Below are positions 12,181 to 62,805 of a DNA stretch of 64,000 nt, piece by piece. Origin of the DNA: Melioribacteraceae bacterium. Lineage in GTDB: Bacteria > Bacteroidota > Ignavibacteria > Ignavibacteriales > Melioribacteraceae. Made by a program: the position numbers and the translations under genes. The DNA is taken from contig OY760517.1 in NCBI GenBank assembly GCA_963663615.1, positions 1,193,042 through 1,257,041 of the forward strand. Reading direction: 5' to 3'. Numbering within the stretch: position 1 is the stretch's first letter; each line of letters begins with the position of its first letter. The notes under the pieces were generated by a model that was not told where the DNA came from, made no database searches, and was given only the letters and a program-made list of their open reading frames with translations.

Positions 12181-12225
12181 ATATTTTTGTCGAATAAACG
12201 GACTTGGAAGTCCAATGAGGCAGTT

Positions 12226-14499: not shown

Positions 14500-14521
14500 G
14501 TGATAAATTTTTAAGGGCAAT

Positions 14522-15403: not shown

Positions 15404-15500
15404 TTGTAATATGAAAGATAATACCTAATGTCTTTTGTAAGCAGAAGAAATTATCCGATTAACTGAAAAATTATATTGCCTCTTTAAATAATCTGACTTA

Positions 15501-15525
15501 TATTTAGACCAAGTCTAAATTAAAA
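15501..15525 (+). promoter_or_regulatory. Candidate operator upstream of feoAB-2: perfect 7-3-7 inverted repeat
   Basis: TTTAGAC-CAA-GTCTAAA (15503-15519) is a perfect palindrome 16 nt upstream of the feoA ATG. It shares the core with 9955-9978. Confidence 0.45.
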
Positions 15526-15535
15526 TAGTGGTAAT

Positions 15536-15757
15536 ATGAGAACAGCAGCACAGATATCGAATGGTGAAAGAGTTACTATAAATAGTATCGATTTTTCAAA
15601 CCCGTATTCAGGCAGGTTACTTGAACTGGGTTTTACACCGGGACAAAATATTATGCTTGTAAATAAATCATTGTTTAGTGAACCGTATGCTTTTGCTGTT
15701 AGAGGTACAATGATTGCGTTACGTAAAAAGGAAGCAGAGATAATTAAGGTTTTATGA
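15536..15757 (+). CDS. feoA: Ferrous iron transport protein A (copy 2)
   Basis: 73-aa FeoA-like protein. Its stop overlaps the feoB start (ATGA). Confidence 0.8.
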   Translation: MRTAAQISNGERVTINSIDFSNPYSGRLLELGFTPGQNIMLVNKSLFSEPYAFAVRGTMIALRKKEAEIIKVL

Positions 15758-17691
15758 CTCAGGATACCGCTAAAGTAACTAAAAATATTGGACTTGTTGG
15801 TCCGCCAAACTCAGGTAAAACTACTATCTTTAATTTATTGTGCGGAACAAAATACAGAACCGTAAATTATCCGGGATCAACTGTTGAATATAATTCTGCC
15901 AGGGTACAGGGTAGTTCGGAAAACATTAATCTTATTGATTTTCCGGGAATAGTGTCTGTTAATCCTTCTTCGCCAGATGAAGAAGTTACAGTTAAATCCC
16001 TGTATAATCATCCGAGGTTTGGTAAACTAAAAGATATTATCGTTACAGCTGATTCAAGTCAGCTAACCCGCCATTTACTATTAGCTAAACAACTTTTGCA
16101 TTCAGGTTTTAATGTGCTACTGGTTTTAACAATGGAAGACATATTAAAAGAACGGGAAGTAAAAGTAGATACAACCAACCTTTCCGAAGCATTAAATTTG
16201 CCAATTGTTAAAGTTAATGGTAGAACAGGCGAGGGAAAAACAGACCTTTTGTTGGCAATAAATGATTTGATTAATCGTGCCGGTGATTATGAAAATGAAA
16301 TAACCGAATTGCGTAAGTTCGAACATAACGAAATACTCGATTCATATGACGAAATAGGTCAAATAGTAAGTAAATCATTAATACCGTATAATGCCGTTCA
16401 TGTTGAGGAGTCCGATCCCAAAAGCATGCAACTTGATCTGCCTGCTAAACTTACAATGGCACTGGATCGATTTGTGCTTCATCCGGTTATAGGAATTATA
16501 ATTTTTGTTACCCTAATGATGCTAACTTTTGCTTCAATATTTTGGCTTGCAGCTCCTTTAATGGATTTAACTGAAGAACTGTTTGTCTGGATGGGGACAT
16601 TACCTGCGATGTTATTTGGTGATGGAATTGTAACAGATCTACTTGCCGATGGTATAATAGGCGGTGCCGGAGCTGTTGTAGTTTTTGTTCCGCAGATTGC
16701 AATTTTATTCCTGATTCTTGGTATTCTTGAGGATAGCGGCTACCTTGCAAGAGGTGCAATGCTTGTTGATAAACCTCTTTCGGCAATTGGTTTAAATGGT
16801 AAATCGTTTGTACCAATGCTTTCAGGTTTTGCATGTGCCATTCCTGCTGTTATGGCAGCCAGAACTATTGAGAACAGACGCGAAAGATTACTAACTATTT
16901 TTATTATTCCGCTTTTAAGTTGTAGTGCCAGGTTACCGGTTTATTCTTTGCTTGTATCGTTTTTAATTCCAGCCGACTCATATCTTCTTGGCGGTTTGAT
17001 TATGACGATTATCTATATAACAGGTATAATCATTACAATTATTGTGAGTGCTGTTATTTCAGGATTCCTGAAAAAGAGCAGTACCTATCGGGATGAATCA
17101 TCTTTTATTCTTGAATTACCTTCTTACAGGGTGCCAAAGTTTAAAGTTATACTCTCTTCAACTTACCAAAGCACAATGGGGTATTTGCGTAAAGCAGGTC
17201 CTATTATTTTGGTCTTGTCTGTATTTATATGGGCAGCAAGTTATTTCCCTCTTAATAGTGAGCTTTCACCGGAAGACTCATTTGAACAGTCATATCTGGC
17301 TACTGCCGGTAAAATTATTGAACCGGTTATGCAACCAATGGACCTGGATTGGCGAGTAGGTGTTGGGATACTTTCATCGTTTGCCGCTCGTGAAATTTTT
17401 GTTAGTACCACCGCTCTAATATTTAAAAGCTCGGAAGAGGAAGAAATTCTTGTAACCCGCCTTCAAAATGCAAAGAAAAAAAGTGGTGAGCCTTTATTTA
17501 CTACTTCTACAATTATTGGGCTTATTCTCTTTTTCATCATCGCTATGCAATGTGTATCAACACTGGCTATTGTTAAAAAGGAGACAGGTGGTTGGCAAAT
17601 ACCAATTTTTCAGCTTGTTTTGTACTCGGGATTGGCTTACACGCTTTCAGTAGCTGTTATTAATGGTCTTCAGCTATTTGGCATTAGCTAA
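15754..17691 (+). CDS. feoB: Ferrous iron transporter FeoB (copy 2, divergent paralog)
   Basis: G-domain GPPNSGKTT, DFPG; membrane domain with EDSGYLARGA. Confidence 0.95.
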   Translation: MTQDTAKVTKNIGLVGPPNSGKTTIFNLLCGTKYRTVNYPGSTVEYNSARVQGSSENINLIDFPGIVSVNPSSPDEEVTVKSLYNHPRFGKLKDIIVTADSSQLTRHLLLAKQLLHSGFNVLLVLTMEDILKEREVKVDTTNLSEALNLPIVKVNGRTGEGKTDLLLAINDLINRAGDYENEITELRKFEHNEILDSYDEIGQIVSKSLIPYNAVHVEESDPKSMQLDLPAKLTMALDRFVLHPVIGIIIFVTLMMLTFASIFWLAAPLMDLTEELFVWMGTLPAMLFGDGIVTDLLADGIIGGAGAVVVFVPQIAILFLILGILEDSGYLARGAMLVDKPLSAIGLNGKSFVPMLSGFACAIPAVMAARTIENRRERLLTIFIIPLLSCSARLPVYSLLVSFLIPADSYLLGGLIMTIIYITGIIITIIVSAVISGFLKKSSTYRDESSFILELPSYRVPKFKVILSSTYQSTMGYLRKAGPIILVLSVFIWAASYFPLNSELSPEDSFEQSYLATAGKIIEPVMQPMDLDWRVGVGILSSFAAREIFVSTTALIFKSSEEEEILVTRLQNAKKKSGEPLFTTSTIIGLILFFIIAMQCVSTLAIVKKETGGWQIPIFQLVLYSGLAYTLSVAVINGLQLFGIS

Positions 17692-25062: not shown

Positions 25063-27270
25063 ATGATCAGCAAAATTGCTAAGATAGTTCTGTTTATAAT
25101 TGCAAGCTGCGGTACTCTTTTTCCGCAGCAGGTTTTAACAGTATTTGGTACTGTAAGTGATGAAAACAACAAGCCCTTGCCTTATGTGAATGTTTACAGA
25201 CTTAGCAGTTTTGATGGTGTCATGACTAACGAAAAAGGCGAATTTTTGTTCACCACTAAAAAAGGTGAAGGAATAAATATTGTTGCTTCAATTATAGGGT
25301 ACAGTAAGTACAATGAACCACTTCCAATAGGGATTAAGGATAAATACGAATTAAATATTGTGCTTTATACCAAAACTGTTAAGCTAACTGAAACTGTTGT
25401 GTTAGGCTCTGCATTCAGCTCGGAAAAGGGTAAGGGGGTGGTTGTACAGGAAAGGGATGTGCTCATGACTCCCGGTGGTGCAGCTGATATTTTGCAGGCA
25501 ATAAAAACTATGCCCGGTCTTACTAATGTTTCGGAAAGTGCACAGCTCTACGTAAGGGGAGGAGACCCGGTAGAAACTATTACAGTTATTGATAATGCAA
25601 CCGTTTATCATCCTTATACACTTGAATCATCTTATGGTGGATTGTTTTCCAATCTTAATACCGGTGCAATGAAGTCACTTTTCTTTTCCAGCGGTGGATT
25701 TTCGGCAAAGTACGGTAATGCACTTTCGGGTGTGCTGGATATTAAAACCAAGGATGAACCATCTGCAAACTCTCATACAATTGGTATTTCAATGGCGAGT
25801 TTGTCATTCGAAAGTGATATACCGGTAATTGAAGATAAAACCGGATTAAGATTATACGGAAAAATGAGTTTATATGAGCCTCTAATGGCGGTTAATGGTG
25901 CAAGAAGCGAATTTACAAGTCTGCCCGATGCAAAAGATATTAGCGGAGTTTATACACACAAATACTCCGAAACCGGCAGAATAAAACTTTTTGGTATGTA
26001 CGCTGAGGATAATCAGGGTGTTAAGGTTGAGCGTGCCGAATACAATGGTAACTTTAATGGAGCTTCCTATAATAGATTTATTAATCTGAATATTACCGAT
26101 GTATTTTACCGCAAGTTGTTCATTAATACTACCGCAGCATATAATGTGTTTGCCAATAAATGGACTCTGGGTGTTCTTGATCTTGAAAATACTGATGCGG
26201 TTATGAAGTATCGTGTGGATGCGGAATATAATATTTCCAAAGAATACAGGCTGCTTGCCGGTTTCGATATGGAAGAAAGAACTGAAAAGTATTTGGGACA
26301 GGTTCCTGATGAGGATTATAACATTAGACCTGATGCACCTAAAGTTGTTCTTGATGAAAAAGTTGCAAACAGACGTTACAGCACTTACCTTGAACTTGAG
26401 TCTGCAAAGCTGTTTACCGATAGGTTGTTTTTTGTTGCAGGATTAAGATATGATGTTTTTCCTGATCTTGATATATCATGGTTCGATCCAAGATTAAATA
26501 TAGGGTACAAAATAAATGACAAATCGAATATTAAATTTGGTTTTGGCTACTTCAGGCAAATACCAGATTTAAGGTTATTCGCAATTAAAGATGGTAATCC
26601 CGGTCTTAAAGAAATGCAAGCTGAACAATATATTGTTTCTTATGATTACCAGTATTCAAAAAAATCATATTTCCGTATAGAAACTTATTATAAGGATTAC
26701 ATTAACTTGCCTCTTGAAGATGAGGTACAAAACTATTCAAATAATGGATATGGATATGCATACGGTGCCGATATTATATTCAAAGGGGATTTGTCAAATG
26801 ATTTAAGTGGTTGGGTATCTTATGGTTATTTGAAATCGAAACGTATCTGGATGGATAACGAATCGTATGCTCCTAGTGATTATGACATCACTCACGGCTT
26901 AACAATTGTTACACAATATTACCTTACTGATTCATGGAATTTGGGAGTGAATTATAAATATTCAACAGGCAGACCTTATACTCCGGTTCTTGGAGGTAAT
27001 TATATTGAATACCAGGGTGTTTACGAACCGGTTGAAGGCTCAACAAATAGTAGTCGTTTCCCTGGTTATCATCGCCTTGATGTAAGGTTTACATATTTTC
27101 ACAATTTGTTTGGTAAATACTTTACGGTAGTGTATCTAGAGATGATGAACATATTAAACATAAGGAATATACACAGTTACACATATAGCAAGGATTATAA
27201 CGAGAGGTTTGAAAATGGCAGTTATTTTGGAAGGCGTACTTTGGTACTTGGCACAAGTATATCGTTATAG
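25063..27270 (+). CDS. TonB-dependent receptor-like outer membrane protein (CarbopepD_reg + plug + barrel)
   Basis: N-terminal GTVSDENNKPLPYVNVY; plug LYVRGGDP...IDN; long beta-rich C-terminus. Starts 3 nt after the TPR gene. Confidence 0.75.
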   Translation: MISKIAKIVLFIIASCGTLFPQQVLTVFGTVSDENNKPLPYVNVYRLSSFDGVMTNEKGEFLFTTKKGEGINIVASIIGYSKYNEPLPIGIKDKYELNIVLYTKTVKLTETVVLGSAFSSEKGKGVVVQERDVLMTPGGAADILQAIKTMPGLTNVSESAQLYVRGGDPVETITVIDNATVYHPYTLESSYGGLFSNLNTGAMKSLFFSSGGFSAKYGNALSGVLDIKTKDEPSANSHTIGISMASLSFESDIPVIEDKTGLRLYGKMSLYEPLMAVNGARSEFTSLPDAKDISGVYTHKYSETGRIKLFGMYAEDNQGVKVERAEYNGNFNGASYNRFINLNITDVFYRKLFINTTAAYNVFANKWTLGVLDLENTDAVMKYRVDAEYNISKEYRLLAGFDMEERTEKYLGQVPDEDYNIRPDAPKVVLDEKVANRRYSTYLELESAKLFTDRLFFVAGLRYDVFPDLDISWFDPRLNIGYKINDKSNIKFGFGYFRQIPDLRLFAIKDGNPGLKEMQAEQYIVSYDYQYSKKSYFRIETYYKDYINLPLEDEVQNYSNNGYGYAYGADIIFKGDLSNDLSGWVSYGYLKSKRIWMDNESYAPSDYDITHGLTIVTQYYLTDSWNLGVNYKYSTGRPYTPVLGGNYIEYQGVYEPVEGSTNSSRFPGYHRLDVRFTYFHNLFGKYFTVVYLEMMNILNIRNIHSYTYSKDYNERFENGSYFGRRTLVLGTSISL

Positions 27271-27459
27271 GAAGTTTTTCTTCCCGCGTCTTTTTAGTTC
27301 AAGGCAAATTTGCTGAATAAGAAATTTGTCAAACTCATCATTCCAGCTAAGCATATTCATAAGAGAGAAGAGTTCTTTTTCTTCAAGTTTCCTGAGGTTA
27401 ACATCTTTTCTTATTGCTCCCGAACCATTTGTTATCTTGTCTTTTTTTAAGTCATCCAT
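27265..27459 (-). CDS. Hypothetical small protein (64 aa), doubtful
   Basis: An ORF only. A strong hairpin separates it from the upstream aspA, and its end overlaps the convergent TBDR gene. Confidence 0.2.
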   Translation of the reverse strand: MDDLKKDKITNGSGAIRKDVNLRKLEEKELFSLMNMLSWNDEFDKFLIQQICLELKRRGKKNFL

Positions 27460-27467
27460 AAAATTGG

Positions 27468-27495
27468 GTTACCGGCAGAATAAACTGCCGGTAAC
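27468..27495 (-). terminator. Terminator hairpin just after aspA
   Basis: An 11-bp perfect stem: GTTACCGGCAG (27468-27478) pairs with CTGCCGGTAAC (27485-27495). It begins 4 nt past the aspA stop. Confidence 0.6.
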
Positions 27496-27498
27496 AGT

Positions 27499-29367
27499 TT
27501 ATTTAAGCTTTCTTGGTTTAATCATATTTTCCGGCAGGAGAATATTATCAAGTTCTTCCTGTGTAAGGAGTTCTTTTTCGAGTACCAAATCATAAACACC
27601 ACGGTTAGTCTCGAGTGCTTCTTTGGCAAGACTTGTACATATTTCGTAACCAAGCACCGGATTAAGAGCTGTAACCAACCCTATTGAATGCTGAACCAAA
27701 TCACGGCAACGTTGTTCGTTTGCAGTTATATCATCAATGCAGCGGTATTTAAGAGTTACCATACCATTTTTCAACATTTCTATCGATTCAAACAAACTTT
27801 GTACTATAACAGGTTCAAATACGTTAAGTTCAAGCTGTCCACCCTCCGCAGCAAGGTTAACAGTTAAATCGTTACCAATCACCTTAAATGCAATCTGGTT
27901 AACCACTTCAGGAATAACAGGATTAACTTTACCTGGCATAATAGATGAGCCTGGCTGCATAGCCGGTAGATTAATTTCATTAAATCCTGTTCTTGGTCCG
28001 GATGAAAGTAATCTTAGATCGTTACTGATTTTACTTAATTTTACTGCAAGACGTTTAACAGCTGATGAATACATAATAAATGCACCGGTATCCTGGGTTG
28101 CTTCAACAAGGTTAGCCGCTTTTTCAATTTCATAACCGCTAATTTCCCTAAGGTGGTGAACACACTTATCCGAGTATTCGGGGTCAGTATTTATGCCTGT
28201 GCCAATAGCAGTAGCACCCATGTTAACTTCAAGAAACAGTTTTGAGTTTTGTGACAGGCGGTGTATTTCTTCCTCAAGAGTAGCAGCATAGGCTTCAAAT
28301 TCTTGTCCCAGTGTCATAGGTACGGCATCCTGAAGCTGAGTTCTTCCCATTTTAATAACAGATGCAAACTCCTCACTTTTTTTACGGAATGAGGCTATGA
28401 GGTTTTTAAGAACCGGGATCAGCTTTTCGTTTGCTTTGATTAGAGCAATTTTAACAGCAGTTGGGTAAGCATCGTTTGTTGATTGCGAAAGGTTAACATG
28501 ATTGTTTGGATGGCAATATTTATAGTCGCCTTTTTCATGACCAAGTATTTCGAGAGCACGGTTTGCAATTACTTCGTTGGCATTCATGTTTGTTGAAGTT
28601 CCTGCACCACCCTGAATCATATCAACAACAAACTGCGAATGATACCTGCCGTTCATAATTTCCTCACAAGCCTGAACAATTGCATCACAAACAGGTTTTG
28701 AAAGTAAACCCAGCTCATAATTTGCCTTGGCAGCAGCCATTTTTACAACAGCAAAACCGCTAATAATTGCAGGGAAAAAGTTTAGGGGTACACCACTAAT
28801 ATTAAAATTTTCCATTGCACGGAGCGTTTGCACACCGTAATAGGCTTCATAAGGAACTTCACGGTTACCAAGCAAGTCATGTTCTTCACGTGTTCTGCCT
28901 GTTTGGTATTGTGAAGTCATATTTACAAGACGCGTATTAGCCTGTGCAATTCTTCTTGAGATAACACGTGAAATTCTTGCCAGAATTTTACCCGCTATTG
29001 TCGCGTGATCCACAAGCATTTTTTTGAATGAATCACGAGAAAGCAGCAGACAACTGGTATCAAGAGTAGTACGTGCAGAAGTTGAATGAGGATAGTCATC
29101 CATAAGTGCACCTTCACTAAGGAAATCGAACTTGCTAAAGAAGGTTATTCTTTTTTCTTCCCCGTAGGGCGTGCGTTTGTAAAGTTCAATTTCACCTTCA
29201 TGAACAATAACAAGGTCTTTTCTTGGAGTATTTTCGGCATAAACGTATTCGTCTTTTGGTATTTCAACACGTTTAGTATATCCAAGTAATATTTCGAGCT
29301 CATCTTCTTTTAAGTCCTTAAATAGCTCAATGGACTTCAGGAATGAAACTAAATTTTCTTTTGGCAT
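27499..29367 (-). CDS. aspA: Aspartate ammonia-lyase with N-terminal cyclic-nucleotide-binding-like domain
   Basis: From aa ~159 onward it is typical AspA (EEHDLLGNREVPYEAYYGVQTLRAMENF; GSSIMPGKVNPVIPEVVNQ). Aa 1-158 look like a cNMP-binding beta-barrel plus C-helix. Confidence 0.9.
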   Translation of the reverse strand: MPKENLVSFLKSIELFKDLKEDELEILLGYTKRVEIPKDEYVYAENTPRKDLVIVHEGEIELYKRTPYGEEKRITFFSKFDFLSEGALMDDYPHSTSARTTLDTSCLLLSRDSFKKMLVDHATIAGKILARISRVISRRIAQANTRLVNMTSQYQTGRTREEHDLLGNREVPYEAYYGVQTLRAMENFNISGVPLNFFPAIISGFAVVKMAAAKANYELGLLSKPVCDAIVQACEEIMNGRYHSQFVVDMIQGGAGTSTNMNANEVIANRALEILGHEKGDYKYCHPNNHVNLSQSTNDAYPTAVKIALIKANEKLIPVLKNLIASFRKKSEEFASVIKMGRTQLQDAVPMTLGQEFEAYAATLEEEIHRLSQNSKLFLEVNMGATAIGTGINTDPEYSDKCVHHLREISGYEIEKAANLVEATQDTGAFIMYSSAVKRLAVKLSKISNDLRLLSSGPRTGFNEINLPAMQPGSSIMPGKVNPVIPEVVNQIAFKVIGNDLTVNLAAEGGQLELNVFEPVIVQSLFESIEMLKNGMVTLKYRCIDDITANEQRCRDLVQHSIGLVTALNPVLGYEICTSLAKEALETNRGVYDLVLEKELLTQEELDNILLPENMIKPRKLK

Positions 29368-29607
29368 TAATTCCCCTAATATTGTTGCTAATTAACACCT
29401 GTCAAGATACTAAATATTCTGCTATTACAGAAGTATTTCTATGTTAACAAGTTTTTAGTTATAGTCAATTATCGAATGGAAATTTATTTATTGAATTAGT
29501 TTTAGTGATTAAATTTTGAGTTAGTTGTAAATTAAAATAATGATGCTTTTAAGGAATAATTTCAATATCTTTCTACAACTTTATTTAATCAATAAACTGT
29601 CCGAACA

Positions 29608-31063: not shown

Positions 31064-34000
31064 ATGAAAAAAGCATTTTTACTGTTTGCTCTTTTATCTT
31101 CATTTCTTTTCGCCCAGAATTTAAAAGTGCTTAAATCAACAAATGATTATGTAGATGTACAAGTTGATTTTGGTAACTCCTACTTTCTTGGTGATACTGT
31201 AATTAATGATATTGAATATGATTATGTTACAAGTTCTGATCCCATTTTGGCTGATGCGGGTTCACCGGCATTGCCAATTTATACTTTTAAGATGGGTATT
31301 CCTCATAATGCTGAAGTATCAGTAAAAATATTAAAAATAGACGATTTTACTTTTGATAACAAGTTTATTCTTCCCCAACCAAGTATGGCTCTTACCGAAG
31401 AGGGTGTTGATGACAAACTTAATTTTAACAAGGAAGTTTACTCAACGAATTCATACTTCCCCAAAGAAATTTCTTCTTTAAGTGGTACATATGTATATCG
31501 TCTCTCAAATATTGCTTCCATAGCCGTTTCACCATATCAGTTCAACCCTGTTACGAGAAAGCTTAAATACAATAAAACTGTTAATGTAAGGGTTTATATA
31601 AAATCCGGTTCAATGAACAACATTAGCAATGTTGCTGATTATGATATGAAAACTGATGAGATGTTAAAAAAATCAGTTGTAAATTATAATCAGGCTCAAA
31701 AATGGACGGGCTTAATTAAGCCTGAAAAGACAAATGTTGCTACAGACTGGTATAATCCAACTAATGTTTATGCCAAAATATTTGTGCAGGAAAAAGGAAT
31801 TTACAGAGTTTATTATGACCAGCTGGATAGTCTTGGATATCAGATGAATAGTATCATGTCTGATAATTTAAGATTGTTTTGCAATGGTGAAGAGGTGCCA
31901 ATACAAGTTTTTGATGGTGAAAACAAAATATTTAGTTCAGGAGATTATTTTCAGTTTGTTGGATTTCCTCCAAAAGCAACCGAATATGCAAGACAAAATA
32001 TTTATAATACAAAAAATGTTTACTGGTTAACCTACGATCCGGATTCGACCGGATTAAGGTATCAGCGTGTAGATGGTTATCCGGTTAATGAGCAAATTAA
32101 ATTACAGAACACTAATGAAGTGATTCATCTTGAAGAGGATCTTCTATTTGAAAGATTTGGTCATGCAGAAGATCTTAACAGAGATAACTGGCAATGGGCT
32201 GTAGTGAGTGGAAGAGATGGTTCACCAGTTAAAAGTTTCACCGCACAGTTCAGATTTCCAGCCAACTGGAATAGTGACAATAAAAATGTGAAGCTCACTT
32301 ATAGTGTTCATGGAATGGAAAAAACAAGCCATAATCCTGAGTTTAGGTTACTTTCTCAAGATATTGGAGATTTCTATTTTACTGGTCAGGAAAGTATTGA
32401 GTATTCTTTTGAACGTGATCTGGATTCATTTTCTCTGGCACCTACTATAAATCTTCAGGTAATAACCCGTGGAGGAAATTACGCATCAACAGACGAAATT
32501 AGAGTTAACTGGATTGATATTAAGTACAATAGATTAAACCGTGTTTTTGGCAATTATTTTGCAATTAATTCACCACAGGATGCACTGAACAGAAGAGCTA
32601 TGTATGAAGTGTGGAGATGGTATGGTGATAGCCTTTGGGTTTATATTCCGGGAACTAATGAGTTGCTTACCAATACCAGACGCCTTAATAACGAGTACCA
32701 AACCTTTCAGTTTATGCATACGGCTACTGAACCACAGGAGTATTTCTGTTTTGATGATGGATACTATTCAGTGCCTGATTCGTTTTCTCTGAATTCAAAC
32801 TCTGATCTATTAAGTACCAGCAACGGTGCCGATTATATAATAATTACACATCCCGATTTTATGGAAGCTGCTGAACAACTTGCTGAATTCAGGAGAAATA
32901 ATCTTGATGGATTTGACAATCCTCGTGTTAAAATTGTAAATGTTTTTGATATTTATAATGAGTTTTCTTTCGGCTTGCTTGACCCCGAAGCAATAAGAGA
33001 ATTTACCATACATGCCTTTTTTTCTTGGCAATTACCACGCCCTTCCTATGTAGCTCTTTTGGGTGATATGAGTTGGGATTACCGTGGACTTTTAGAGGAT
33101 AGCAGGAAGAATTATCTCCCTTCTATGGCTACTAAAACTTACGAACATGGCTACACTGTTGCCGATAACCTCTACGCTGCAGTTTCCGGTGATGATGTTA
33201 TGCCTGATATGGCAATCGGACGTATTTCTTGTGAAACGCCGGAGGAAGCCCAATTATTGGTTGATAAAATTGTAAATTATCCAAATGATCCGGGTAAAGA
33301 GTGGGTTCAAAATACGTTACTTATTGGTGCAGGACAAAATACCGGTGATGAACAGAGTAAGGGTTTTAACGATCAATCACTCTTCCTTGATAATAACTAT
33401 ATTCAGGAAGTTGGGTTTAATTCAACAAAAGTTTTTTATTTCCCTAATAAAGAATCACATGAACCTTTTAAGGGCGGTACTCCTGAAATAAGGCAAGGTT
33501 TTAATGATGGTTGTATAATGGCTAACTTTTACGGACATGGTGGCGGTTATCAGTGGGATGCAGTTTTCCTTAATGACGATATTTACCTGCTGGAAAATGA
33601 AGGACGTATGCCATTTGTAACCAGTATTACATGTTATACTGCACATTTCGATAACCAAAAAGTTTTTGGTGAAAACTTTAATCTCGCTGCCGGCAGAGGG
33701 TCAATTGGGTTTTTTGGACATACCGGAATTACCTTGTGGAATTATGGTGTGGATATGAACAAGAGGCTCTATAACTATTTGTTCCTTGAAGGTGAAGAAG
33801 TTTTAGGTGATGCTGTACTGTTAGCCAAAACTAACTTTAACGGTATTCTTACAAATAATACAAAAGATCATCTAAATTGTTTAACATTGCTTGGTGATCC
33901 GGCTCTTAAACTTGCCTTGCCAGAATATGCCGACTTTGCTGTTGGAACAAGTAATATTAGTATTAATCCTTCAACACCACTGGTTGATGATTCAACAAAC

Positions 34001-36760
34001 GTTTATGTTGACATCAATAATATTGGTCGGTATATAGATACTGATTCAGTATATGTAAGACTTGAAGCCACTGGTCCTGATACAAGTTTTGTTTTGGGTA
34101 CGAAGAAAATTGCAAGCTTCAGAGATCGCGATACACTTGAATTTGGATTTACCCCAAGAAAGGATGGAATTTTTACTTTTACCGCCAGTGTAAATATGCA
34201 AAACCAAATTGAAGAAATTGATTTTAGTGATAATATCGCTTCGGCTAACTTTGCAGTATTTAGTATTGCGGAACCTAGTTTGGTTAAACCGTATGATGGT
34301 GCGGTTGTTAAATCAGATAATTTTGAGGTTACAATAGCAGATGTTGCAGAATATGTTGAAAGAAATTTAACCTATTATGTTGAAATAGATACCAGTTTGG
34401 AATTTAATGATCCAATGTATCAATCTGCCGAGTTGATCCCTGAAAAAAATGGAGTTCTTGAATATGCTCCATCTATATCTGCAGGCAAATATTTCTTGAG
34501 ATCACGTATCAGGGAAGGTGAAAAATACTCTTACTGGTCTCCAACAATAACCTTTACTATATCGGATAACAATGATGAAAAAGGTTATCACATAAATGAA
34601 AACCAGCTAAAAATACTTAACTATTCAAATATGCAGTATAATGAATCAATATCTGCTATGGTAATGAACAGAACAAACAATCCGCCCGAACCAAAAGGAA
34701 CATCTATTCTTGATGAAATGATGATGGATACACTTATGCCAGCAGATGTTCACTCATTAACTGCTATCGCTACTGATGGTTCCTATATTTATTTCGGGCA
34801 TATGGGTTATTTTGGAGTTGCTTATGATAACTTTGATGAAGCGACACCAATCTACAAAGTTGGTACCGGTTATAATGGTACTACCAGGGGAGTGGTTGAA
34901 GGACCAATTAGTGAGAACAGAGTTCCTATATGGAAATCAATGTTTCATTTGGATGGAGCATTGTATTTTGCACAGTTAGACCCTAATTTTATTATGAAAC
35001 TTGATTTAGCAACCGGTGATACATCATCAATTTATGTACCGGCAGGATTTTATGACGATCTTAATACATTGGTTCAAACCGGTGGATCGTACGTACAGTC
35101 GGATGGTCGTTATGTATATAACCTGGCATTTAAGGATACGCTCGATGAGTATTATTACACAATGAGAATGTTTGACCCTTATAATGAATGGGAGCAGGTT
35201 GGCGATGATATTGTGTTAACCGGTAGCAGTTATGAAGGTTTTTCAGGATTTTTTATAGCTGAAGGAATTTTGTATGTATTCGAAAAAAATATTTCGAACT
35301 ATGTTAGACAGTATAGTCTGGAAACTCATATATATATAAATGAATGGAAAATTTATGGTAACAGTCGCTTTGACGGCTTCTACACTTATTGTTATGACCG
35401 TGTTAATGATAAGGTTTATGGTAGCACGCACTATGGCAGCAAACCAAAGAAATTTTCAATATTCAGAGGTACATATAACGAGGGTTTAGCCTCAATCGAA
35501 ACCCCACAGATAGGTCCGGCAAGTGAATGGGGAAATATTAACTATAACATTGATTCCGAAAACTCGTTGGGGGTTTACAATGTTAAACTTACAGGCAGAA
35601 ATGTGAGCACCAATTCCTGGGTAGTTATTGAAGATACTTTGGATGGTAACTATACTCCGGATGATTCGTTGAATGGAAAGTATGACTATCTGAAAATGAA
35701 CTTTGATCTTAAAGATAATTCCGAAGGAGATAACAAAAAACTATCACTCCATGAAATAAATGTTCAATATACTTCATTTCCCGAAATTATTGTATCTGAA
35801 GGCTATTTCAGATTTGCACCTGACTCGTTATTACAAGGTTTTGATCTTTATCTTGAACTCGACATAAAAAATGTTGGTGATGCCAAGGCAAATAATGTAA
35901 AAATAGACCTTTCCCTTAATGATGCTGATTCTGCATTCTACTCAACAAACATTGATATTGATGCGAACACAGAAATTACATTGAATGATACAATCAATAC
36001 ATCCACTTTATTATTTGATAATACTGTTAAAGTAAATGTTGAATCGGCAACTCCGGAATTATATACGTTTAATAATATCGCTAAAAATTCATTTTATGTA
36101 TCCCGGGATTCGCTCATTCCAACATTTGATATTAGTTTTGATGGTAGAGAAATAATTGATGGCGATTTGGTATCATCCCGCCCCGAAGTGCTCATAACAC
36201 TTAAAGATAATAGTCCGTTGCCACTTGTAGCCGAGAACTTCTACATTTATTATGATCATGCTGAATTGCAGGTGCAGGCAAAGGATTCGATGCAGTTTAA
36301 CTATACACCATACCCTGATTCGAAGGCGGAAATAACCTGGACTCCATTAATGAATGACGGACCGCATCGTCTTGAAGTTCTTGCAAAAGATGCTTCAAAC
36401 AACTTTTTTGATTCAACCCAATATGTAATTACATTCAGGGTAGATACTGAAAACAAAATTGAAGATATTTATAATTATCCAAATCCATTTACAGACGATA
36501 CATGGTTTACGTTTACCTTAACCGGTTCTGAAACTCCGCAGGAATTGCAGATCAGAATATATACAGTTACAGGAAGACTAATTCGTGTAATTGATGTGAT
36601 GCCAAATGAAATGGAAATCAAACTTTTAAACAAGATTTACTGGGACGGAAGAGACCAGGATGGTGATACGATTGCTAACGGTGTATATTTGTATAAAGTA
36701 ATTGCAAAATATCCTGATAAAAATATCACTGAAATCAAAAAACTCGCCAAGGTGAAATAA
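31064..36760 (+). CDS. Peptidase C25 (gingipain-family) multidomain protein with T9SS C-terminal domain
   Basis: Signal peptide. The catalytic region (nt ~32816-33914) has ADYIIITHPDF, YVALLGD, NFYGHGG (His) and SITCYTAHF (Cys). C-terminal NYPNPFTDDTWFTF...IYWDGRDQDGDTIANGVYLYKV is a FlgD-Ig/T9SS sorting domain. Confidence 0.8.
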   Translation: MKKAFLLFALLSSFLFAQNLKVLKSTNDYVDVQVDFGNSYFLGDTVINDIEYDYVTSSDPILADAGSPALPIYTFKMGIPHNAEVSVKILKIDDFTFDNKFILPQPSMALTEEGVDDKLNFNKEVYSTNSYFPKEISSLSGTYVYRLSNIASIAVSPYQFNPVTRKLKYNKTVNVRVYIKSGSMNNISNVADYDMKTDEMLKKSVVNYNQAQKWTGLIKPEKTNVATDWYNPTNVYAKIFVQEKGIYRVYYDQLDSLGYQMNSIMSDNLRLFCNGEEVPIQVFDGENKIFSSGDYFQFVGFPPKATEYARQNIYNTKNVYWLTYDPDSTGLRYQRVDGYPVNEQIKLQNTNEVIHLEEDLLFERFGHAEDLNRDNWQWAVVSGRDGSPVKSFTAQFRFPANWNSDNKNVKLTYSVHGMEKTSHNPEFRLLSQDIGDFYFTGQESIEYSFERDLDSFSLAPTINLQVITRGGNYASTDEIRVNWIDIKYNRLNRVFGNYFAINSPQDALNRRAMYEVWRWYGDSLWVYIPGTNELLTNTRRLNNEYQTFQFMHTATEPQEYFCFDDGYYSVPDSFSLNSNSDLLSTSNGADYIIITHPDFMEAAEQLAEFRRNNLDGFDNPRVKIVNVFDIYNEFSFGLLDPEAIREFTIHAFFSWQLPRPSYVALLGDMSWDYRGLLEDSRKNYLPSMATKTYEHGYTVADNLYAAVSGDDVMPDMAIGRISCETPEEAQLLVDKIVNYPNDPGKEWVQNTLLIGAGQNTGDEQSKGFNDQSLFLDNNYIQEVGFNSTKVFYFPNKESHEPFKGGTPEIRQGFNDGCIMANFYGHGGGYQWDAVFLNDDIYLLENEGRMPFVTSITCYTAHFDNQKVFGENFNLAAGRGSIGFFGHTGITLWNYGVDMNKRLYNYLFLEGEEVLGDAVLLAKTNFNGILTNNTKDHLNCLTLLGDPALKLALPEYADFAVGTSNISINPSTPLVDDSTNVYVDINNIGRYIDTDSVYVRLEATGPDTSFVLGTKKIASFRDRDTLEFGFTPRKDGIFTFTASVNMQNQIEEIDFSDNIASANFAVFSIAEPSLVKPYDGAVVKSDNFEVTIADVAEYVERNLTYYVEIDTSLEFNDPMYQSAELIPEKNGVLEYAPSISAGKYFLRSRIREGEKYSYWSPTITFTISDNNDEKGYHINENQLKILNYSNMQYNESISAMVMNRTNNPPEPKGTSILDEMMMDTLMPADVHSLTAIATDGSYIYFGHMGYFGVAYDNFDEATPIYKVGTGYNGTTRGVVEGPISENRVPIWKSMFHLDGALYFAQLDPNFIMKLDLATGDTSSIYVPAGFYDDLNTLVQTGGSYVQSDGRYVYNLAFKDTLDEYYYTMRMFDPYNEWEQVGDDIVLTGSSYEGFSGFFIAEGILYVFEKNISNYVRQYSLETHIYINEWKIYGNSRFDGFYTYCYDRVNDKVYGSTHYGSKPKKFSIFRGTYNEGLASIETPQIGPASEWGNINYNIDSENSLGVYNVKLTGRNVSTNSWVVIEDTLDGNYTPDDSLNGKYDYLKMNFDLKDNSEGDNKKLSLHEINVQYTSFPEIIVSEGYFRFAPDSLLQGFDLYLELDIKNVGDAKANNVKIDLSLNDADSAFYSTNIDIDANTEITLNDTINTSTLLFDNTVKVNVESATPELYTFNNIAKNSFYVSRDSLIPTFDISFDGREIIDGDLVSSRPEVLITLKDNSPLPLVAENFYIYYDHAELQVQAKDSMQFNYTPYPDSKAEITWTPLMNDGPHRLEVLAKDASNNFFDSTQYVITFRVDTENKIEDIYNYPNPFTDDTWFTFTLTGSETPQELQIRIYTVTGRLIRVIDVMPNEMEIKLLNKIYWDGRDQDGDTIANGVYLYKVIAKYPDKNITEIKKLAKVK

Positions 36761-40197: not shown

Positions 40198-41163
40198 ATG
40201 AGAGATATTGCTGTTGTAGCCTTTGGGGGAAACGCCCTCCAGAGCGGAAACGAAAAAGGCGGTATCGAGCAGCAGGAAAAGGTTGTTTATGAAACCTGCG
40301 AAAAACTTGTTGATCTCATTCGTAAAGACGAAACAGGATTAATTATTACACATGGTAATGGTCCCCAGGTGGGGACCATCCTGTTACAGAATGAGGCAGG
40401 GTTTGAGCAGTATAAAATTCCTAAAAAACCTATTGATGTTGCTGTTGCCGATTCACAAGGCTGGATTGGCTATATGATAAACCGCCAATTGCGAAATGTT
40501 CTTAATGATTATAATATTGACAGAAAAGTGGTTGCGCTGGTAACTCAGGTTTTTGTTGATAAAAACGATCCTGCTTTTGAAAGCCCTTCAAAACCGGTTG
40601 GTAGATTTTTTATCAAGGAAGAAGCTGATTTACTTGCGAAAGCAAATGACTGGCAATTTCAGGAAGACTCGCGTAAGAGGGGATGGAGAAGAGTAGTACC
40701 TTCACCTCGTCCAATGGATATCGAAAACAAGGATCTTGTTAAACAACTGGCTGAAGCAGGTTATATAGTTATAACAGTTGGTGGTGGTGGTATTCCAATT
40801 TACCGTCATGATGATGGTCATCTTGAACCAATTGAAGCTGTAATTGACAAAGATCTGGCATCTTCACTTTTAGCTTCGGAAATTGGTGCTAAAAATTTCT
40901 ATATTTTGACGGACGTTCCAAAAGCGTATGTAAACTTTAACAAGCCGGGTCAAAAGGCTCTTGATACTATTACACCCGAAGAGGCTAAAACGTATCTTGA
41001 TAATGGTGAGTTTGGTAAAGGCAGTATGGGACCAAAAGTTAAGGCTGCAATGGAGTTTGCAGTTAACACAGGTAATGAAGCAATTATAACAAGTTCCGAT
41101 GAAATTAAGTATGACGGATGCGGAACAAGAATTAAACCAATTAAAGAATTAACAAATGTATAA
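40198..41163 (+). CDS. arcC: Carbamate kinase
   Basis: VVAFGGNAL, HGNGPQVG and VGGGGIP motifs, ~320 aa. Confidence 0.85.
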   Translation: MRDIAVVAFGGNALQSGNEKGGIEQQEKVVYETCEKLVDLIRKDETGLIITHGNGPQVGTILLQNEAGFEQYKIPKKPIDVAVADSQGWIGYMINRQLRNVLNDYNIDRKVVALVTQVFVDKNDPAFESPSKPVGRFFIKEEADLLAKANDWQFQEDSRKRGWRRVVPSPRPMDIENKDLVKQLAEAGYIVITVGGGGIPIYRHDDGHLEPIEAVIDKDLASSLLASEIGAKNFYILTDVPKAYVNFNKPGQKALDTITPEEAKTYLDNGEFGKGSMGPKVKAAMEFAVNTGNEAIITSSDEIKYDGCGTRIKPIKELTNV

Positions 41164-41178
41164 GGCAGAGGAGTAATA

Positions 41179-42111
41179 ATGGCTGTTAACATGAAAGGCA
41201 AAAGCCTCATTTCTATTAATGATCTTTCACTTGAAGAAATGTATCAGATTTTTGAAGTTGCTAAATCTCTTAAATTAAAGCAGCTTACGGGTGAAAAGCA
41301 TCATGTGCTTGAAGGTAAAACTCTTGGAATGATATTTTCAAAACCTTCAACAAGAACAAGAGTATCATTCCAGGTTGGTATTTATCAGCTGGGTGGTACA
41401 GGTATGTATTTTGGTCCTAACGATTTACAGCTGGGTAAAAGTGAAAACGTTTCGGATACTGCCAAGGTTCTTTCCCGTTATCTTGATGGTATTATGATTC
41501 GTACATTTTCACACCAGGATGTTATTGATCTTGCAAAATATGGTTCTATTCCAGTAATAAATGGTCTTACTGATCTGCTCCATCCATGTCAGGTACTAAC
41601 TGATCTTTTTACTATTATCGAGAAAAAAGGTGAGTTACGCGGACTTAAATTTGCATATCTTGGTGATGGCAATAATATGGCTCATTCGTTGCTTCACGGT
41701 ATGTCAAAAGTTGGTATGGATATAGCCATTGCTACACCTTCAAACTATAAACCTGAAACAGAAATTGTTAATAATGCATTGGAAAATGCAAAATATATGG
41801 GCAGTAAAGTTGAAATTCTTGAAGACCCTGTTGAAGCTGTAAAGGATGCTGATATTATTTATACAGATGTTTGGGCATCTATGGGACAGGAAGATGAAGC
41901 TTCCGAACGTCGTGGACATTTTATGAAATATCAGGTTAATCCTAAACTTGTTGCAAATGCCAAGGATGATTATCTGTTTATGCATTGTTTACCTGCACAT
42001 CGTGGTGATGAAGTGGTAAATGAAGTTGCTGATTCATCAAATTCCGTAATCTTTGATGAAGCAGAAAACAGGCTACACACTCAGAAAGCTGTAATGGCAC
42101 TTGTAATGTAA
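41179..42111 (+). CDS. argF: Ornithine carbamoyltransferase
   Basis: STRTR, HPCQ, DVWASMG and HCLPAHRGDE motifs. Confidence 0.85.
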   Translation: MAVNMKGKSLISINDLSLEEMYQIFEVAKSLKLKQLTGEKHHVLEGKTLGMIFSKPSTRTRVSFQVGIYQLGGTGMYFGPNDLQLGKSENVSDTAKVLSRYLDGIMIRTFSHQDVIDLAKYGSIPVINGLTDLLHPCQVLTDLFTIIEKKGELRGLKFAYLGDGNNMAHSLLHGMSKVGMDIAIATPSNYKPETEIVNNALENAKYMGSKVEILEDPVEAVKDADIIYTDVWASMGQEDEASERRGHFMKYQVNPKLVANAKDDYLFMHCLPAHRGDEVVNEVADSSNSVIFDEAENRLHTQKAVMALVM

Positions 42112-62804: not shown

Positions 62805-62805
62805 A

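What the first reader, a model, noticed from the sequence alone, without database searches (positions are those of the whole stretch)
27499..29367. Aspartate ammonia-lyase fused to a cNMP-binding-like domain with a degenerate phosphate-binding cassette
The ORF is 622 aa. The AspA core starts at about aa 159 (EEHDLLGNREVPYEAYYGV...). Aa 1-158 have the layout of a CAP/cNMP-binding domain (LFKDLKEDELEILL...GEIELYK...FLSEGALM...ARTT...LLLSRDSFKKML, then a C-helix).

In the position of the canonical phosphate-binding cassette (FGE-x-AL...PRSA-T/S), the sequence reads LSEGALMDDYPHSTSART (nt 29068-29118). The Arg that contacts the cyclic phosphate appears to be replaced.

This suggests allosteric control of aspartase by a ligand that may not be cAMP or cGMP. 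I do not know of a characterised example of this architecture.
Basis: partly seen in the sequence, partly recalled or inferred. Interest (0 to 1): 0.65.

Follow-up and report, generated by a model that had tools for sequence, protein, structure and literature searches.

The report
Aspartase fused to His-variant cNMP-binding domain
This gene encodes an intact aspartase carrying an N-terminal CRP-like sensor domain whose phosphate-binding arginine is almost always histidine. The fusion is conserved in hundreds of Ignavibacteria-type species, appears never to have been studied, and probably switches the enzyme with an unknown small-molecule signal.

Summary
ORF 27499-29367 (-) encodes 622 aa made of a cNMP-binding domain (PF00027, E=3.8e-15, aa 34-119), a long C-helix, a short conserved linker and a complete aspartate ammonia-lyase (TIGR00839 above its cut-off).

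It is not a frameshift or assembly artefact:
- All 120 best database homologues have the same three domains.
- At least 541 GTDB species genomes carry the sensor-type domain. All 80 loci kept and read run into the aspartase N-terminus. They are mainly Ignavibacteriota, with divergent forms in KSB1, Desulfobacterales, Bacteroidales and a high-GC lineage.

"Degenerate cassette" is the wrong description. The cassette is among the best-conserved parts of the domain (DF-x-GEGAL-x-DD-x-PHSTSAR).
- Two changes are family-specific: Arg to His (227 of 230 fused proteins) and a hydrophobic residue to Gly after the ribose-binding Glu (224 of 230).
- Ribose, phosphate-Ser and C-helix base-contact positions stay CRP-like.

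My best reading is a ligand-gated aspartase with a re-tuned, probably nucleotide-type pocket. The ligand is unknown, and cAMP is not excluded.

I found no paper and no solved structure of this architecture. I rate it a new variant of a known kind (CNB-regulated enzymes), of moderate-to-good interest.

The parts
27499..29367 (-). Whole gene: 622-aa fusion of a CNB domain and aspartate ammonia-lyase
   Evidence: ORF listed. Three Pfam domains. All 120 best homologues share the architecture.
29378..29405 (-). Promoter-like site (TTGACA, 16 nt spacer, AATATT) about 10 nt upstream of the ATG
   Evidence: Consensus scan, 10 of 12 matches. This is only a consensus match, and the number of sites found is not above the shuffled expectation.
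29011..29268 (-). cNMP-binding beta-roll (Pfam PF00027 match, aa 34-119)
   Evidence: E=3.8e-15, 56.1 bits against a cut-off of 27.5. AF2 pLDDT is 88-96 here in the domain-only model. Foldseek top hits are cAMP-binding CRPs with TM 0.72.
29071..29127 (-). Phosphate-binding-cassette equivalent, aa 81-99: DFLSEGALMDDYPHSTSAR
   Evidence: Aligned to the M. tuberculosis Crp cassette. Family consensus is DFLGEGALMDDSPHSTSAR, with D81, F82, E85, G86, D90, P93 and H94 invariant in 120 homologues. Coordinates checked.
29086..29088 (-). His94 codon, in place of the cyclic-phosphate-binding Arg
   Evidence: His in 227 of 230 fused proteins. In 594 non-fused CNB domains pulled by the same profile the position is Arg in 402 and His in 71.
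29110..29115 (-). Glu85-Gly86: the ribose-2'-OH Glu is kept, and the residue after it is Gly instead of the usual Leu/Met/Ile
   Evidence: E85 in 228 of 230 and G86 in 224 of 230 fused proteins. In the non-fused controls this position is M/L/I in 406 of 594 and G in 40.
28903..29004 (-). Long C-helix (aa 122-155) with a CRP-like RR...N motif (R138, R139, N144)
   Evidence: Modelled as helix 122-155. ISRRIAQANTR aligns with E. coli CRP MARRLQVTSEK and with M. tuberculosis Crp ARRLRRTNNN. R139 occurs in 229 of 230 and N144 in 198 of 230 fused proteins.
28891..28923 (-). Short conserved linker, aa 149-159 (NMTSQYQTGRT; family consensus N-x-AAQYQSGRT), joining the C-helix to the first aspartase residues
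   Evidence: Q153, Y154 and G157 are invariant, and S156, R158 and T159 nearly so, in 120 homologues. AF2 confidence is below 50 here, so its conformation is unknown.
27511..28890 (-). Aspartate ammonia-lyase core, aa 160-619
   Evidence: TIGR00839 aspA equivalog 722 bits (cut-off 681) and PRK12273 756 bits (cut-off 510). Best solved relative is 6wng, E=8.8e-196.
27919..27951 (-). Catalytic SS loop GSSIMPGKVNP (aa 473-483), the fumarase/aspartase superfamily signature GS-x2-M-x2-K-x-N
   Evidence: Read directly from the sequence. Invariant or nearly so in the 67-sequence alignment.
27468..27495 (-). Intrinsic-terminator-like hairpin (11 bp stem, 7 G-C pairs) starting 4 nt after the stop codon, followed by a T-rich tail
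   Evidence: Together with the flanking genes on the opposite strand, it indicates a monocistronic gene.

Best explanation
The gene encodes a catalytically intact aspartase (L-aspartate to fumarate plus ammonium) regulated in cis by an N-terminal CRP-type sensor domain.

Proposed mechanism (inferred):
- A small ligand binds in the beta-roll pocket, between the conserved cassette (E85, G86, H94, S95) and the C-helix (R138, R139, N144).
- As in CRP and in cAMP-regulated enzymes, binding repositions the C-helix.
- The helix is joined to the first aspartase strand by only about ten conserved residues (AAQYQSGRT), so the movement is passed to the N-terminal lobe of the lyase or to the tetramer.
- This switches activity on or off.

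The pocket is re-tuned rather than dead. Arg to His and Leu/Met/Ile to Gly are fixed family-wide, while the ribose, phosphate-Ser and base-contact positions stay CRP-like. The ligand is therefore most likely a nucleotide-type molecule bound with different affinity, charge or pH dependence than classical cAMP sites. cAMP itself is possible, and its identity is unknown.

Physiologically, this would put aspartate catabolism (fumarate supply, ammonium release) under post-translational control by a metabolic signal in peptide-degrading Ignavibacteria. It would do at the protein level what CRP/FNR and GlnB do for aspA/AspA in E. coli.

Shown: the architecture, its conservation, the pocket signature and an intact catalytic core. 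Inferred: ligand binding, ligand class and the coupling mechanism.
For: - Architecture and fold: Pfam and NCBIfam matches. AF2 domain model pLDDT 83.8. Nearest structures are genuine cAMP-binding CRPs: M. tuberculosis CRP, T. thermophilus CAP and GlxR, TM about 0.72.
- The fusion is real and old. All 120 best homologues share the architecture. At least 541 GTDB species genomes hold the domain, and all 80 loci read have the His cassette next to the aspartase junction. Divergent fused forms occur in KSB1, Desulfobacterales, Tenuifilum and a high-GC lineage.
- The pocket is under selection. H94 is kept in 227 of 230, E85 in 228, G86 in 224, S95 in 213, R139 in 229 and N144 in 198 fused proteins. 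Non-fused CNB domains pulled by the same profile have Arg in 402 of 594 and M/L/I after Glu in 406 of 594. His persists where domain identity to the window has dropped to 23-44 %.
- A stand-alone Desulfobacter CNB protein has an almost identical cassette but with Arg (KYDFLGEGSLMDDSPRSTSAKA). So the family differs from a canonical site essentially by this one residue plus G86.
- The linker QYQSGRT is invariant or nearly so.
- The catalytic core is intact: aspA equivalog above cut-off and the SS loop GSSIMPGKVNP present.
- The gene stands alone, with its own promoter-like site and terminator and no conserved partner gene. Any regulation must therefore come from the fused domain.
- Precedent for enzyme-level control of AspA: the GlnB-AspA interaction in E. 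coli (Schubert et al. 2021, listed in PMC10634366).
Against: - There is no biochemical evidence for any ligand or any effect on activity.
- Replacing the phosphate-binding Arg normally lowers cAMP affinity by orders of magnitude (general knowledge of PKA, CRP and HCN mutants). A classical cAMP response is therefore doubtful.
- AF2 gives no confident inter-domain geometry. The linker and aa 144-192 have pLDDT below 50 and pTM is 0.60. The coupling route is a guess.
- No cyclase or other cNMP-signalling gene lies in the 64-kb window, and none is a conserved neighbour in the related loci (where neighbours were only clustered and read, not scanned).
- Whether two N-termini of the aspartase tetramer lie close enough for a CRP-like C-helix dimer was not tested.
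Confidence: 0.39

Rival explanations
1. Classical cAMP (or cGMP) switch. The domain still binds cAMP, with His94 (protonated, or acting through a hydrogen bond) substituting for Arg. Aspartase would be activated on carbon starvation, a protein-level copy of CRP-cAMP activation of aspA.
For: - The closest sequences and structures are cAMP-binding CRPs.
- E85, S95, A87 and the C-helix Asn at the adenine-N6 contact position are conserved.
- An Arg-type fused member (KSB1, P0144) and an Arg-type stand-alone sister (Desulfobacter) exist. This suggests a cAMP-binding ancestor.
Against: - Near-universal loss of the Arg (227 of 230 are His), together with loss of the hydrophobic residue after Glu.
- Arg substitutions in characterised CNB domains cripple cAMP binding (general knowledge).
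- No cyclase was seen nearby.
Confidence: 0.25
2. A non-nucleotide metabolite sensor, analogous to NtcA (2-oxoglutarate), CprK or PrfA. The CRP-type pocket would have been re-used for a carboxylate or amino-acid effector such as 2-oxoglutarate, aspartate, fumarate or malate, giving feedback or nitrogen-status control.
For: - CRP/FNR-type domains are known to bind diverse effectors (general knowledge).
- The variants at position 94 (His, Tyr, Gln, Arg) are all hydrogen-bond donors that suit an anionic oxygen ligand.
- Conserved basic residues R49, R73, R99, R138, R139 and R146.
- E. coli AspA is tied to the 2-oxoglutarate-sensing PII protein GlnB.
Against: - The ribose-type Glu and the Ser/Thr-rich cassette are retained almost unchanged from an Arg-type canonical site.
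- The best structural matches are cAMP-binding CRPs, not NtcA or CprK.
Confidence: 0.17
3. A haem- or metal-based gas/redox sensor, like CooA or DNR. The invariant His94 would ligate a cofactor, linking aspartase (a fumarate supplier for anaerobic respiration) to O2, NO, CO or redox state.
For: - An invariant His lies in the pocket.
- The DNR sensor domain is among the best sequence and structure matches (E=6e-10; rank 5).
- Aspartase expression is anaerobically controlled by FNR in E. coli (general knowledge).
Against: - The pocket is polar and acidic (E85, D90, D91, S92, S95, T96, S97), unlike a haem pocket.
- His is replaced by Arg, Gln or Tyr in some members.
- cAMP-binding CRPs score better than DNR.
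Confidence: 0.05
4. The domain is ligand-free. It would be a structural module for oligomerisation, localisation or partner binding, or a constitutive autoinhibitory cap, with no small-molecule sensing.
For: - The Arg is lost.
- Many CNB-like domains are known not to bind nucleotides (general knowledge).
- The CRP-like C-helix could serve only for dimerisation.
Against: The most conserved residues of the domain line the canonical ligand pocket, not only the helix. That pattern is hard to explain without a ligand or a specific intramolecular contact at the site.
Confidence: 0.13
5. Assembly or sequencing artefact: a frameshift has joined a CRP-like gene to aspA.
For: None found.
Against: - The ORF is continuous.
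- The same fusion, with the same conserved linker, occurs in 120 of 120 top homologues and in all 80 GTDB loci read. These come from independent assemblies, including multi-megabase contigs.
Confidence: 0.01

Closest known systems
Aspartate ammonia-lyase AspA/AspB (fumarase/aspartase class II superfamily; e.g. E. coli 1JSW, Bacillus sp. YM55-1 1J3U, 6WNG)
   Same: - Residues 160-619 are a full-length AspA: TIGR00839 above cut-off, Lyase_1 plus FumaraseC_C, SS-loop signature GSSIMPGKVNP.
- E=8.8e-196 to 6wng.
   Different: - All solved AspA and fumarase chains matched only residues 155-619. None has an N-terminal extension.
- This protein carries a 158-aa sensor domain.
- Known AspA regulation works through substrate/Mg2+ activation and through a separate protein (GlnB), not a fused domain.
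CRP-family cAMP receptor effector domains (M. tuberculosis Crp/Rv3676, C. glutamicum GlxR, T. thermophilus CAP, E. coli CRP)
   Same: - Best sequence match (E=1.5e-12) and best structural match (TM about 0.72).
- Shared beta-roll, cassette spacing, Glu for the ribose, Ser/Thr after the phosphate residue, and a long C-helix with RR...(T/A)N.
   Different: - There is no helix-turn-helix DNA-binding domain; the C-helix runs into an enzyme.
- The phosphate Arg is His, and the residue after Glu is Gly.
cAMP-regulated enzymes with an N-terminal CNB domain (mycobacterial protein lysine acetyltransferase Rv0998/MSMEG_5458; Bdellovibrio CNB-EAL phosphodiesterase Bd1971, PDB 6hq2-6hq7)
   Same: - Same design logic: a CNB domain covalently attached to a catalytic domain, with the C-helix/linker as the transducer.
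- The Bd1971 CNB domain is a detectable sequence relative (E=3.5e-5).
   Different: - The catalytic partner is different: a tetrameric lyase of central nitrogen/carbon metabolism.
- Those proteins keep the canonical Arg and bind cAMP (from memory for Rv0998).
- Regulation here is untested.
Trypanosomatid PKA regulatory subunits (PDB 6h4g, 6flo, 6ftf)
   Same: A precedent that a CNB pocket which has lost the phosphate Arg can stay a functional sensor for another ligand class (nucleosides; from memory of Bachmaier et al. 2019). These chains appear among the sequence and structure matches.
   Different: - There the Arg is replaced by Thr/Asn and a Glu blocks the phosphate site.
- Here the substitute is His, and the small Ala/Ser at the phosphate-amide position is kept.
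- The partner is a kinase subunit, not a fused enzyme.
Stand-alone CNB protein of Desulfobacter postgatei (EIM63249.1 / WP_172635718.1, 130-134 aa)
   Same: The cassette and beta-roll are nearly identical (KYDFLGEGSLMDDSPRSTSAKA against KYDFLGEGALMDDSPHSTSARA), including the unusual GEG.
   Different: - It has Arg, not His.
- It is not fused and lacks most of the C-helix.
- It lies next to a Na+/H+ exchanger-TrkA gene, not aspA.

Membership tests
Aspartate ammonia-lyase (AspA, EC 4.3.1.1) | Scores above the curated cut-off of the aspA equivalog model and better than fumarase models | tested here: met
   TIGR00839 scores 722.2 bits (cut-off 681.2). fumC_II scores 489 bits, below its cut-off of 664.75.
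Aspartate ammonia-lyase (AspA, EC 4.3.1.1) | Lyase_1 plus FumaraseC_C domains and the superfamily signature GS-x2-M-x2-K-x-N (SS loop) | tested here: met
   Pfam matches. GSSIMPGKVNP at aa 473-483, conserved in the 67-sequence alignment.
Aspartate ammonia-lyase (AspA, EC 4.3.1.1) | Reversible deamination of L-aspartate to fumarate; homotetramer with shared active sites | not testable with these tools
   Needs an enzyme assay and SEC or cryo-EM. Only a monomer model was made.
Cyclic nucleotide-binding domain (PF00027, CRP/PKA type) | Profile match above the gathering score, and a beta-roll plus C-helix fold | tested here: met
   56.1 bits against a cut-off of 27.5. AF2 pLDDT 83.8. Foldseek probability 1.00 and TM about 0.72 to CRPs.
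Cyclic nucleotide-binding domain (PF00027, CRP/PKA type) | Cassette Gly-Glu that binds the ribose 2'-OH | tested here: met
   E85 occurs in 228 of 230 and G84 in 215 of 230 fused proteins. The window protein has Ser84, a variant seen in 6 of 230, including loci L020, L048 and L065.
Cyclic nucleotide-binding domain (PF00027, CRP/PKA type) | Cassette Arg that pairs with the cyclic phosphate | tested here: not met
   His94 in the window and in 227 of 230 fused proteins. Controls have Arg in 402 of 594.
Cyclic nucleotide-binding domain (PF00027, CRP/PKA type) | Hydrophobic residue (Leu/Met/Ile) after the cassette Glu | tested here: not met
   Gly86 in 224 of 230 fused proteins. Controls have M/L/I in 406 of 594.
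Cyclic nucleotide-binding domain (PF00027, CRP/PKA type) | Measured binding of cAMP or cGMP | not testable with these tools
   Requires ITC, thermal shift or equilibrium dialysis.
CRP/FNR transcription factors | C-terminal helix-turn-helix DNA-binding domain after the C-helix (PF13545/PF00325) | tested here: not met
   There are no HTH Pfam hits. The C-helix is followed by the aspartase core.
CNB-regulated enzymes (Rv0998 / Bd1971 type) | CNB domain covalently fused to a catalytic domain in one polypeptide, conserved across species | tested here: met
CNB-regulated enzymes (Rv0998 / Bd1971 type) | Catalytic activity changes on ligand binding to the CNB domain | not testable with these tools
   Needs kinetics with and without ligand, plus a truncation control.

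The most novel reading that the evidence does not exclude
The His/Gly-variant pocket recognises a signal that is not cAMP or cGMP. Candidates are another nucleotide or nucleoside second messenger, a nitrogen/carbon-status metabolite, or a pH-gated nucleotide interaction through the histidine.

If so, this would be a previously unrecognised ligand class for CRP-type domains. It would also be the first aspartase whose activity is gated directly by a built-in sensor, and the solution would be phylum-wide in Ignavibacteriota.
Probability: 0.4. Interest if true: 0.75.

Novelty: new variant of a known kind. Interest (0 to 1): 0.58.

Why it matters
Aspartase sits at a junction of carbon, nitrogen and anaerobic energy metabolism: aspartate to fumarate plus ammonium. 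It is also an industrial biocatalyst.

Known regulation is transcriptional (CRP, FNR), by substrate/Mg2+ activation, or through the separate protein GlnB. A built-in sensor domain conserved in hundreds of species would be a new, directly testable mode of control.

For cyclic-nucleotide signalling, the family offers a natural experiment. A CRP-type pocket has swapped its hallmark Arg for His, and Leu/Met/Ile for Gly, and then kept that state under strong selection. Rare Arg, Tyr and Gln variants and an Arg-type stand-alone sister are available for comparison. Identifying the ligand could extend the known chemistry of CNB domains.

It would also give a ligand-switchable aspartase for biotechnology. 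Databases currently label all of these proteins simply as "aspartate ammonia-lyase".

Tried and rejected
- Word-index search with the N-terminal 159 aa alone. It gave only 24 candidates and 5 hits, all fragments, and said nothing about other contexts of the domain.
- Exhaustive profile search with the N-terminal alignment. The ranking was dominated by proteins with many CNB repeats. Its use was the single-domain fragments that revealed divergent fused lineages and the rare Arg, Tyr and Gln variants.
- Third homologue search with an alignment of divergent N-termini. It returned mostly short or unrelated CNB proteins (DUF1003-CNB, Crp/Fnr regulators). It did add a high-GC fused lineage.
- Neighbourhood analysis of 80 loci for a conserved partner such as a cyclase, transporter, asparaginase or fumarate reductase. 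Only lineage synteny (leuS, serS, an ABC transporter) turned up, so a functional operon was rejected.
- Test of whether the Desulfobacter stand-alone CNB gene is a split aspartase partner next to aspA. It is not; it lies beside a Na+/H+ exchanger-TrkA gene.
- Full-length AF2 model. The linker and aspartase N-terminus have pLDDT below 50, so I drew no conclusion on inter-domain contacts and did not run a fold search on it.
- BLASTP against E. coli CRP shifted the cassette by a gap, because E. coli CRP has one extra loop residue. I used the ungapped M. tuberculosis Crp alignment and the canonical Gly-to-Arg spacing of +10 instead.
- Literature searches: aspartate ammonia-lyase + cyclic nucleotide-binding domain; aspartase + cNMP; Ignavibacterium + aspartate ammonia-lyase; cNMP_binding + Lyase_1; Ignavibacteria + adenylate cyclase. 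Nothing relevant was found.
- Frameshift/assembly artefact: rejected.
- A conserved internal start that would give an unfused aspartase: rejected. Met150 of the window protein is I/L/V/H in the homologues read at that position.
Full report

Yes. The minus-strand ORF 27499..29367 is 622 aa with an ATG start and no interruption.
- Pfam finds cNMP_binding at aa 34-119 (E=3.8e-15; 56.1 bits against a gathering score of 27.5), Lyase_1 at aa 167-498 (E=1.7e-100) and FumaraseC_C at aa 564-617.
- NCBIfam places aa 160-619 in the aspA equivalog TIGR00839 (722 bits, cut-off 681). The fumarase models stay below their cut-offs.

The gene looks monocistronic.
- A promoter-like site lies at 29405-29378.
- A strong hairpin terminator at 27495-27468 begins four bases after the stop.
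- The neighbours are on the other strand: a CarboxypepD_reg-domain protein that resembles a TonB-dependent receptor, and a Wzy_C O-antigen-ligase-like protein.

**2. Not an artefact, and not rare.**

- The 120 best hits among 5.8 billion protein clusters are all 619-646 aa, 72-76 % identical and carry the same three Pfam domains. Where named, they are "aspartate ammonia-lyase" from Ignavibacteriota, Ignavibacterium, Melioribacteraceae and similar MAGs.
- A scan of one genome per GTDB species with an alignment of the N-terminal domain and junction gave at least 541 confirmed loci. The 80 kept are mostly Ignavibacteriaceae and Melioribacteraceae, including Ignavibacterium album. Others carry submitter labels such as Zixibacteria, Acidobacteriota, Calditrichaceae, GN15 and Bacteroidota.
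- All 80 carry the CNB-to-aspartase junction in one frame, and 79 show the P-H cassette next to it (the motif pattern did not match in L070). Most are complete 616-632 aa ORFs, and the short ones are mostly cut by contig ends.
- More divergent fused forms come from a KSB1 bacterium, Desulfobacterales, Tenuifilum (Bacteroidales) and a high-GC lineage.
- The sensor domain evolves faster than the core. In close relatives it is 48-59 % identical against 78-84 % for the core. In distant lineages it is 23-44 % against 50-77 %. It is nevertheless always retained.

**3. What the N-terminal domain is.**

- An AF2 model of aa 1-172 is confident (pLDDT 83.8). It shows an N-terminal helical pair, an eight-stranded roll with the short cassette helix, and a long C-helix at aa 122-155.
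- Foldseek against the PDB ranks true cAMP receptors first: M. tuberculosis CRP, T. thermophilus CAP and GlxR, with TM about 0.72. The DNR sensor domain and PKA/PKG domains follow.
- Sequence search of the PDB agrees, with M. tuberculosis Crp at E=1.5e-12.
- No solved chain has the fusion. Aspartase and fumarase chains cover only aa 155-619.

**4. The cassette is re-specified, not degenerate.**

- In 120 close homologues the motif is D81-F82-[LI]-G84-E85-G86-A-L-[ML]-D90-D91-S92-P93-H94-S95-T96-S97-A98-R99. D81, F82, E85, G86, D90, P93 and H94 are invariant.
- The ungapped alignment to M. tuberculosis Crp (DMFGELSIFDPGPRTSSATT) puts H94 on the phosphate-binding Arg, at the canonical +10 spacing from the cassette Gly.
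One more Tyr form, P0158, was missed by the junction pattern.
- In 594 non-fused CNB domains retrieved by the same profile, position 94 is Arg in 402 and the residue after Glu is Met/Leu/Ile in 406.
- The family therefore has two signature changes, Arg to His and hydrophobic to Gly. It keeps the ribose Glu, the small residue whose backbone amide contacts phosphate (Ala/Ser87) and the Ser/Thr after position 94.
- The C-helix keeps the CRP-like R138-R139 pair. It has Asn144 (198 of 230) where E. coli CRP has Ser128 and M. tuberculosis Crp has Asn135, which are base-contact positions by my recollection of those structures.
- A stand-alone 134-aa CNB protein of Desulfobacter postgatei has almost the same cassette but with Arg (KYDFLGEGSLMDDSPRSTSAKA). 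It sits beside a Na+/H+ exchanger-TrkA gene.
- The window protein carries two lineage variants, Ser84 and Tyr92, shared with loci L020, L048 and L065.

**5. The junction.**

- Aspartase homology begins at about R160 (R-x-E-H-D-L-L-G, the native N-terminus of AspA/FumC enzymes).
- Only about ten residues, N-x-A-A-Q-Y-Q-S-G-R-T, separate it from the C-helix. Q153, Y154 and G157 are invariant, and S156, R158 and T159 nearly so.
- Their conformation is not predicted, with pLDDT below 50.
- A short, conserved connection suggests mechanical coupling rather than a floppy tether.

**6. The enzyme part.**

The three conserved regions of the fumarase/aspartase superfamily are present and invariant in the family, including S294-Q-S-T-N-D299 and the SS loop G473-S-S-I-M-P-G-K-V-N-P483. 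I therefore take it to be an active aspartase. This is inferred, not assayed.

**7. Context.**

- No partner gene is conserved next to the fusion in 80 loci. The recurring leuS, serS and ABC-transporter genes reflect synteny within Ignavibacteriaceae.
- The 64-kb window holds no nucleotide cyclase and no other CNB protein.
- It is rich in peptidases (S13, M19, VanY, M28-PDZ, M3 and a 1898-aa C25 protease), which is consistent with amino-acid catabolism.

**8. Most likely mechanism.**

- I propose a ligand-gated aspartase. A small molecule binds between the cassette and the C-helix, the helix moves as in CRP-type proteins, and the short linker transmits this to the N-terminal lobe of the lyase or to tetramer packing.
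- The architecture, the conservation, the pocket signature and the intact catalytic motifs are shown. Ligand binding, ligand identity, the sign of regulation and the coupling path are inferred.
- My split of belief is roughly as follows. A non-classical nucleotide-type ligand takes about 0.39, which is the confidence I give the best explanation as stated. Classical cAMP/cGMP despite the His takes 0.25, and a non-nucleotide metabolite about 0.17. A structural or ligand-free domain takes about 0.13, a haem or metal sensor about 0.05, and an artefact about 0.01.
- Grouped more broadly, some nucleotide-type ligand (cAMP included) takes about 0.64, and any regulatory small-molecule sensor about 0.86.

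**9. Comparison with known systems.**

- It works like the cAMP-regulated enzymes with an N-terminal CNB domain: the mycobacterial acetyltransferase Rv0998 and Bdellovibrio Bd1971.
- Its sensor is a member of the CRP-type CNB fold, but it fails two defining cassette features (Arg, and the hydrophobic residue after Glu).
- It is not a CRP/FNR transcription factor, because it has no HTH domain.
- Trypanosomatid PKA regulatory subunits are a precedent for an Arg-less CNB pocket that senses another ligand class.
- E. coli AspA is known to interact with and be regulated through GlnB (Schubert et al. 2021, as listed in PMC10634366). Enzyme-level control of aspartase therefore has physiological precedent, but not through a fused domain.

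**10. Novelty and score.**

- Four literature queries for the fusion, or for aspartase in Ignavibacterium, returned nothing. A fifth, on adenylate cyclase in Ignavibacteria, returned nothing relevant. The library searched does not cover most subscription journals.
- No structure of the fusion exists.
- The domain combination is visible in precomputed Pfam annotations and is common in one phylum. It is therefore unnoticed rather than hidden.
- I class it as a new variant of a known kind and give it interest 0.58. A signalling or aspartase specialist would be moderately surprised, and the question is directly testable with simple biochemistry.

Noticed in passing
window 47409-49970 (+): An 853-aa protein with an NB-ARC NTPase domain followed by many TPR repeats (STAND-type). 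PADLOC matched only generic TPR models, so a defence role is neither supported nor excluded.
   Followed up: partly
window 10249-17691 (+): Two FeoB paralogues (10249-12180 and 15754-17691) bracket a TonB-dependent receptor (12187-14499) and an EamA transporter (14522-15403). This is an unusual doubled ferrous-iron uptake cluster.
   Followed up: no
window 31064-36760 (+): A 1898-aa gingipain-like Peptidase_C25 with propeptide, a CARDB domain and a FlgD_ig-like C-terminus. Por_Secre_tail (T9SS) cargo proteins lie at 162-2363 and 51090-53780. Together with the S13, M19, VanY, M28-PDZ and M3 peptidases, this points to a proteolytic lifestyle.
   Followed up: partly
window 27265-27459 (-): A 64-aa ORF immediately downstream of the aspartase terminator. 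It overlaps the end of the convergent 25063-27270 gene by 6 nt and has no Pfam match, so it may or may not be a gene.
   Followed up: partly
L081 5001-5405 (Desulfobacter postgatei CM001488.1): A stand-alone 134-aa CNB protein with the same unusual GEG cassette as the aspartase-fused domain, but with the canonical Arg. It is conserved upstream of a Na_H_Exchanger-TrkA_N-TrkA_C gene in four contigs. JGI labels some copies "aspartate ammonia-lyase", apparently by transfer from the fused proteins.
   Followed up: partly
proteins P0293-P0296 and the DUF1003-CNB proteins: Other CNB proteins with His at the cassette Arg position exist, for example the 153-aa stand-alone P0293 (GFIGELSLLDGRSHSASAEA). 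About 12 % of the non-fused domains pulled by the profile have His (some are fragments of fused proteins) and about 8 % have Tyr. The His variant may therefore be a wider, unstudied CNB subclass.
   Followed up: partly
window 59619-63876 (-): carB (1089 aa, GTG start as listed) and carA (356 aa) overlap by 83 nt in the mechanical ORF list. The carB start is probably further downstream. The amino-acid kinase (40198-41163) and ornithine/aspartate carbamoyltransferase (41179-42111) genes lie elsewhere in the window.
   Followed up: no
window 53922-55232 (-): A DUF2130 protein (436 aa) with weak coiled-coil-type similarity to SMC-like defence proteins (JetC, LmuB; E about 3e-4). This is probably compositional.
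   Followed up: partly
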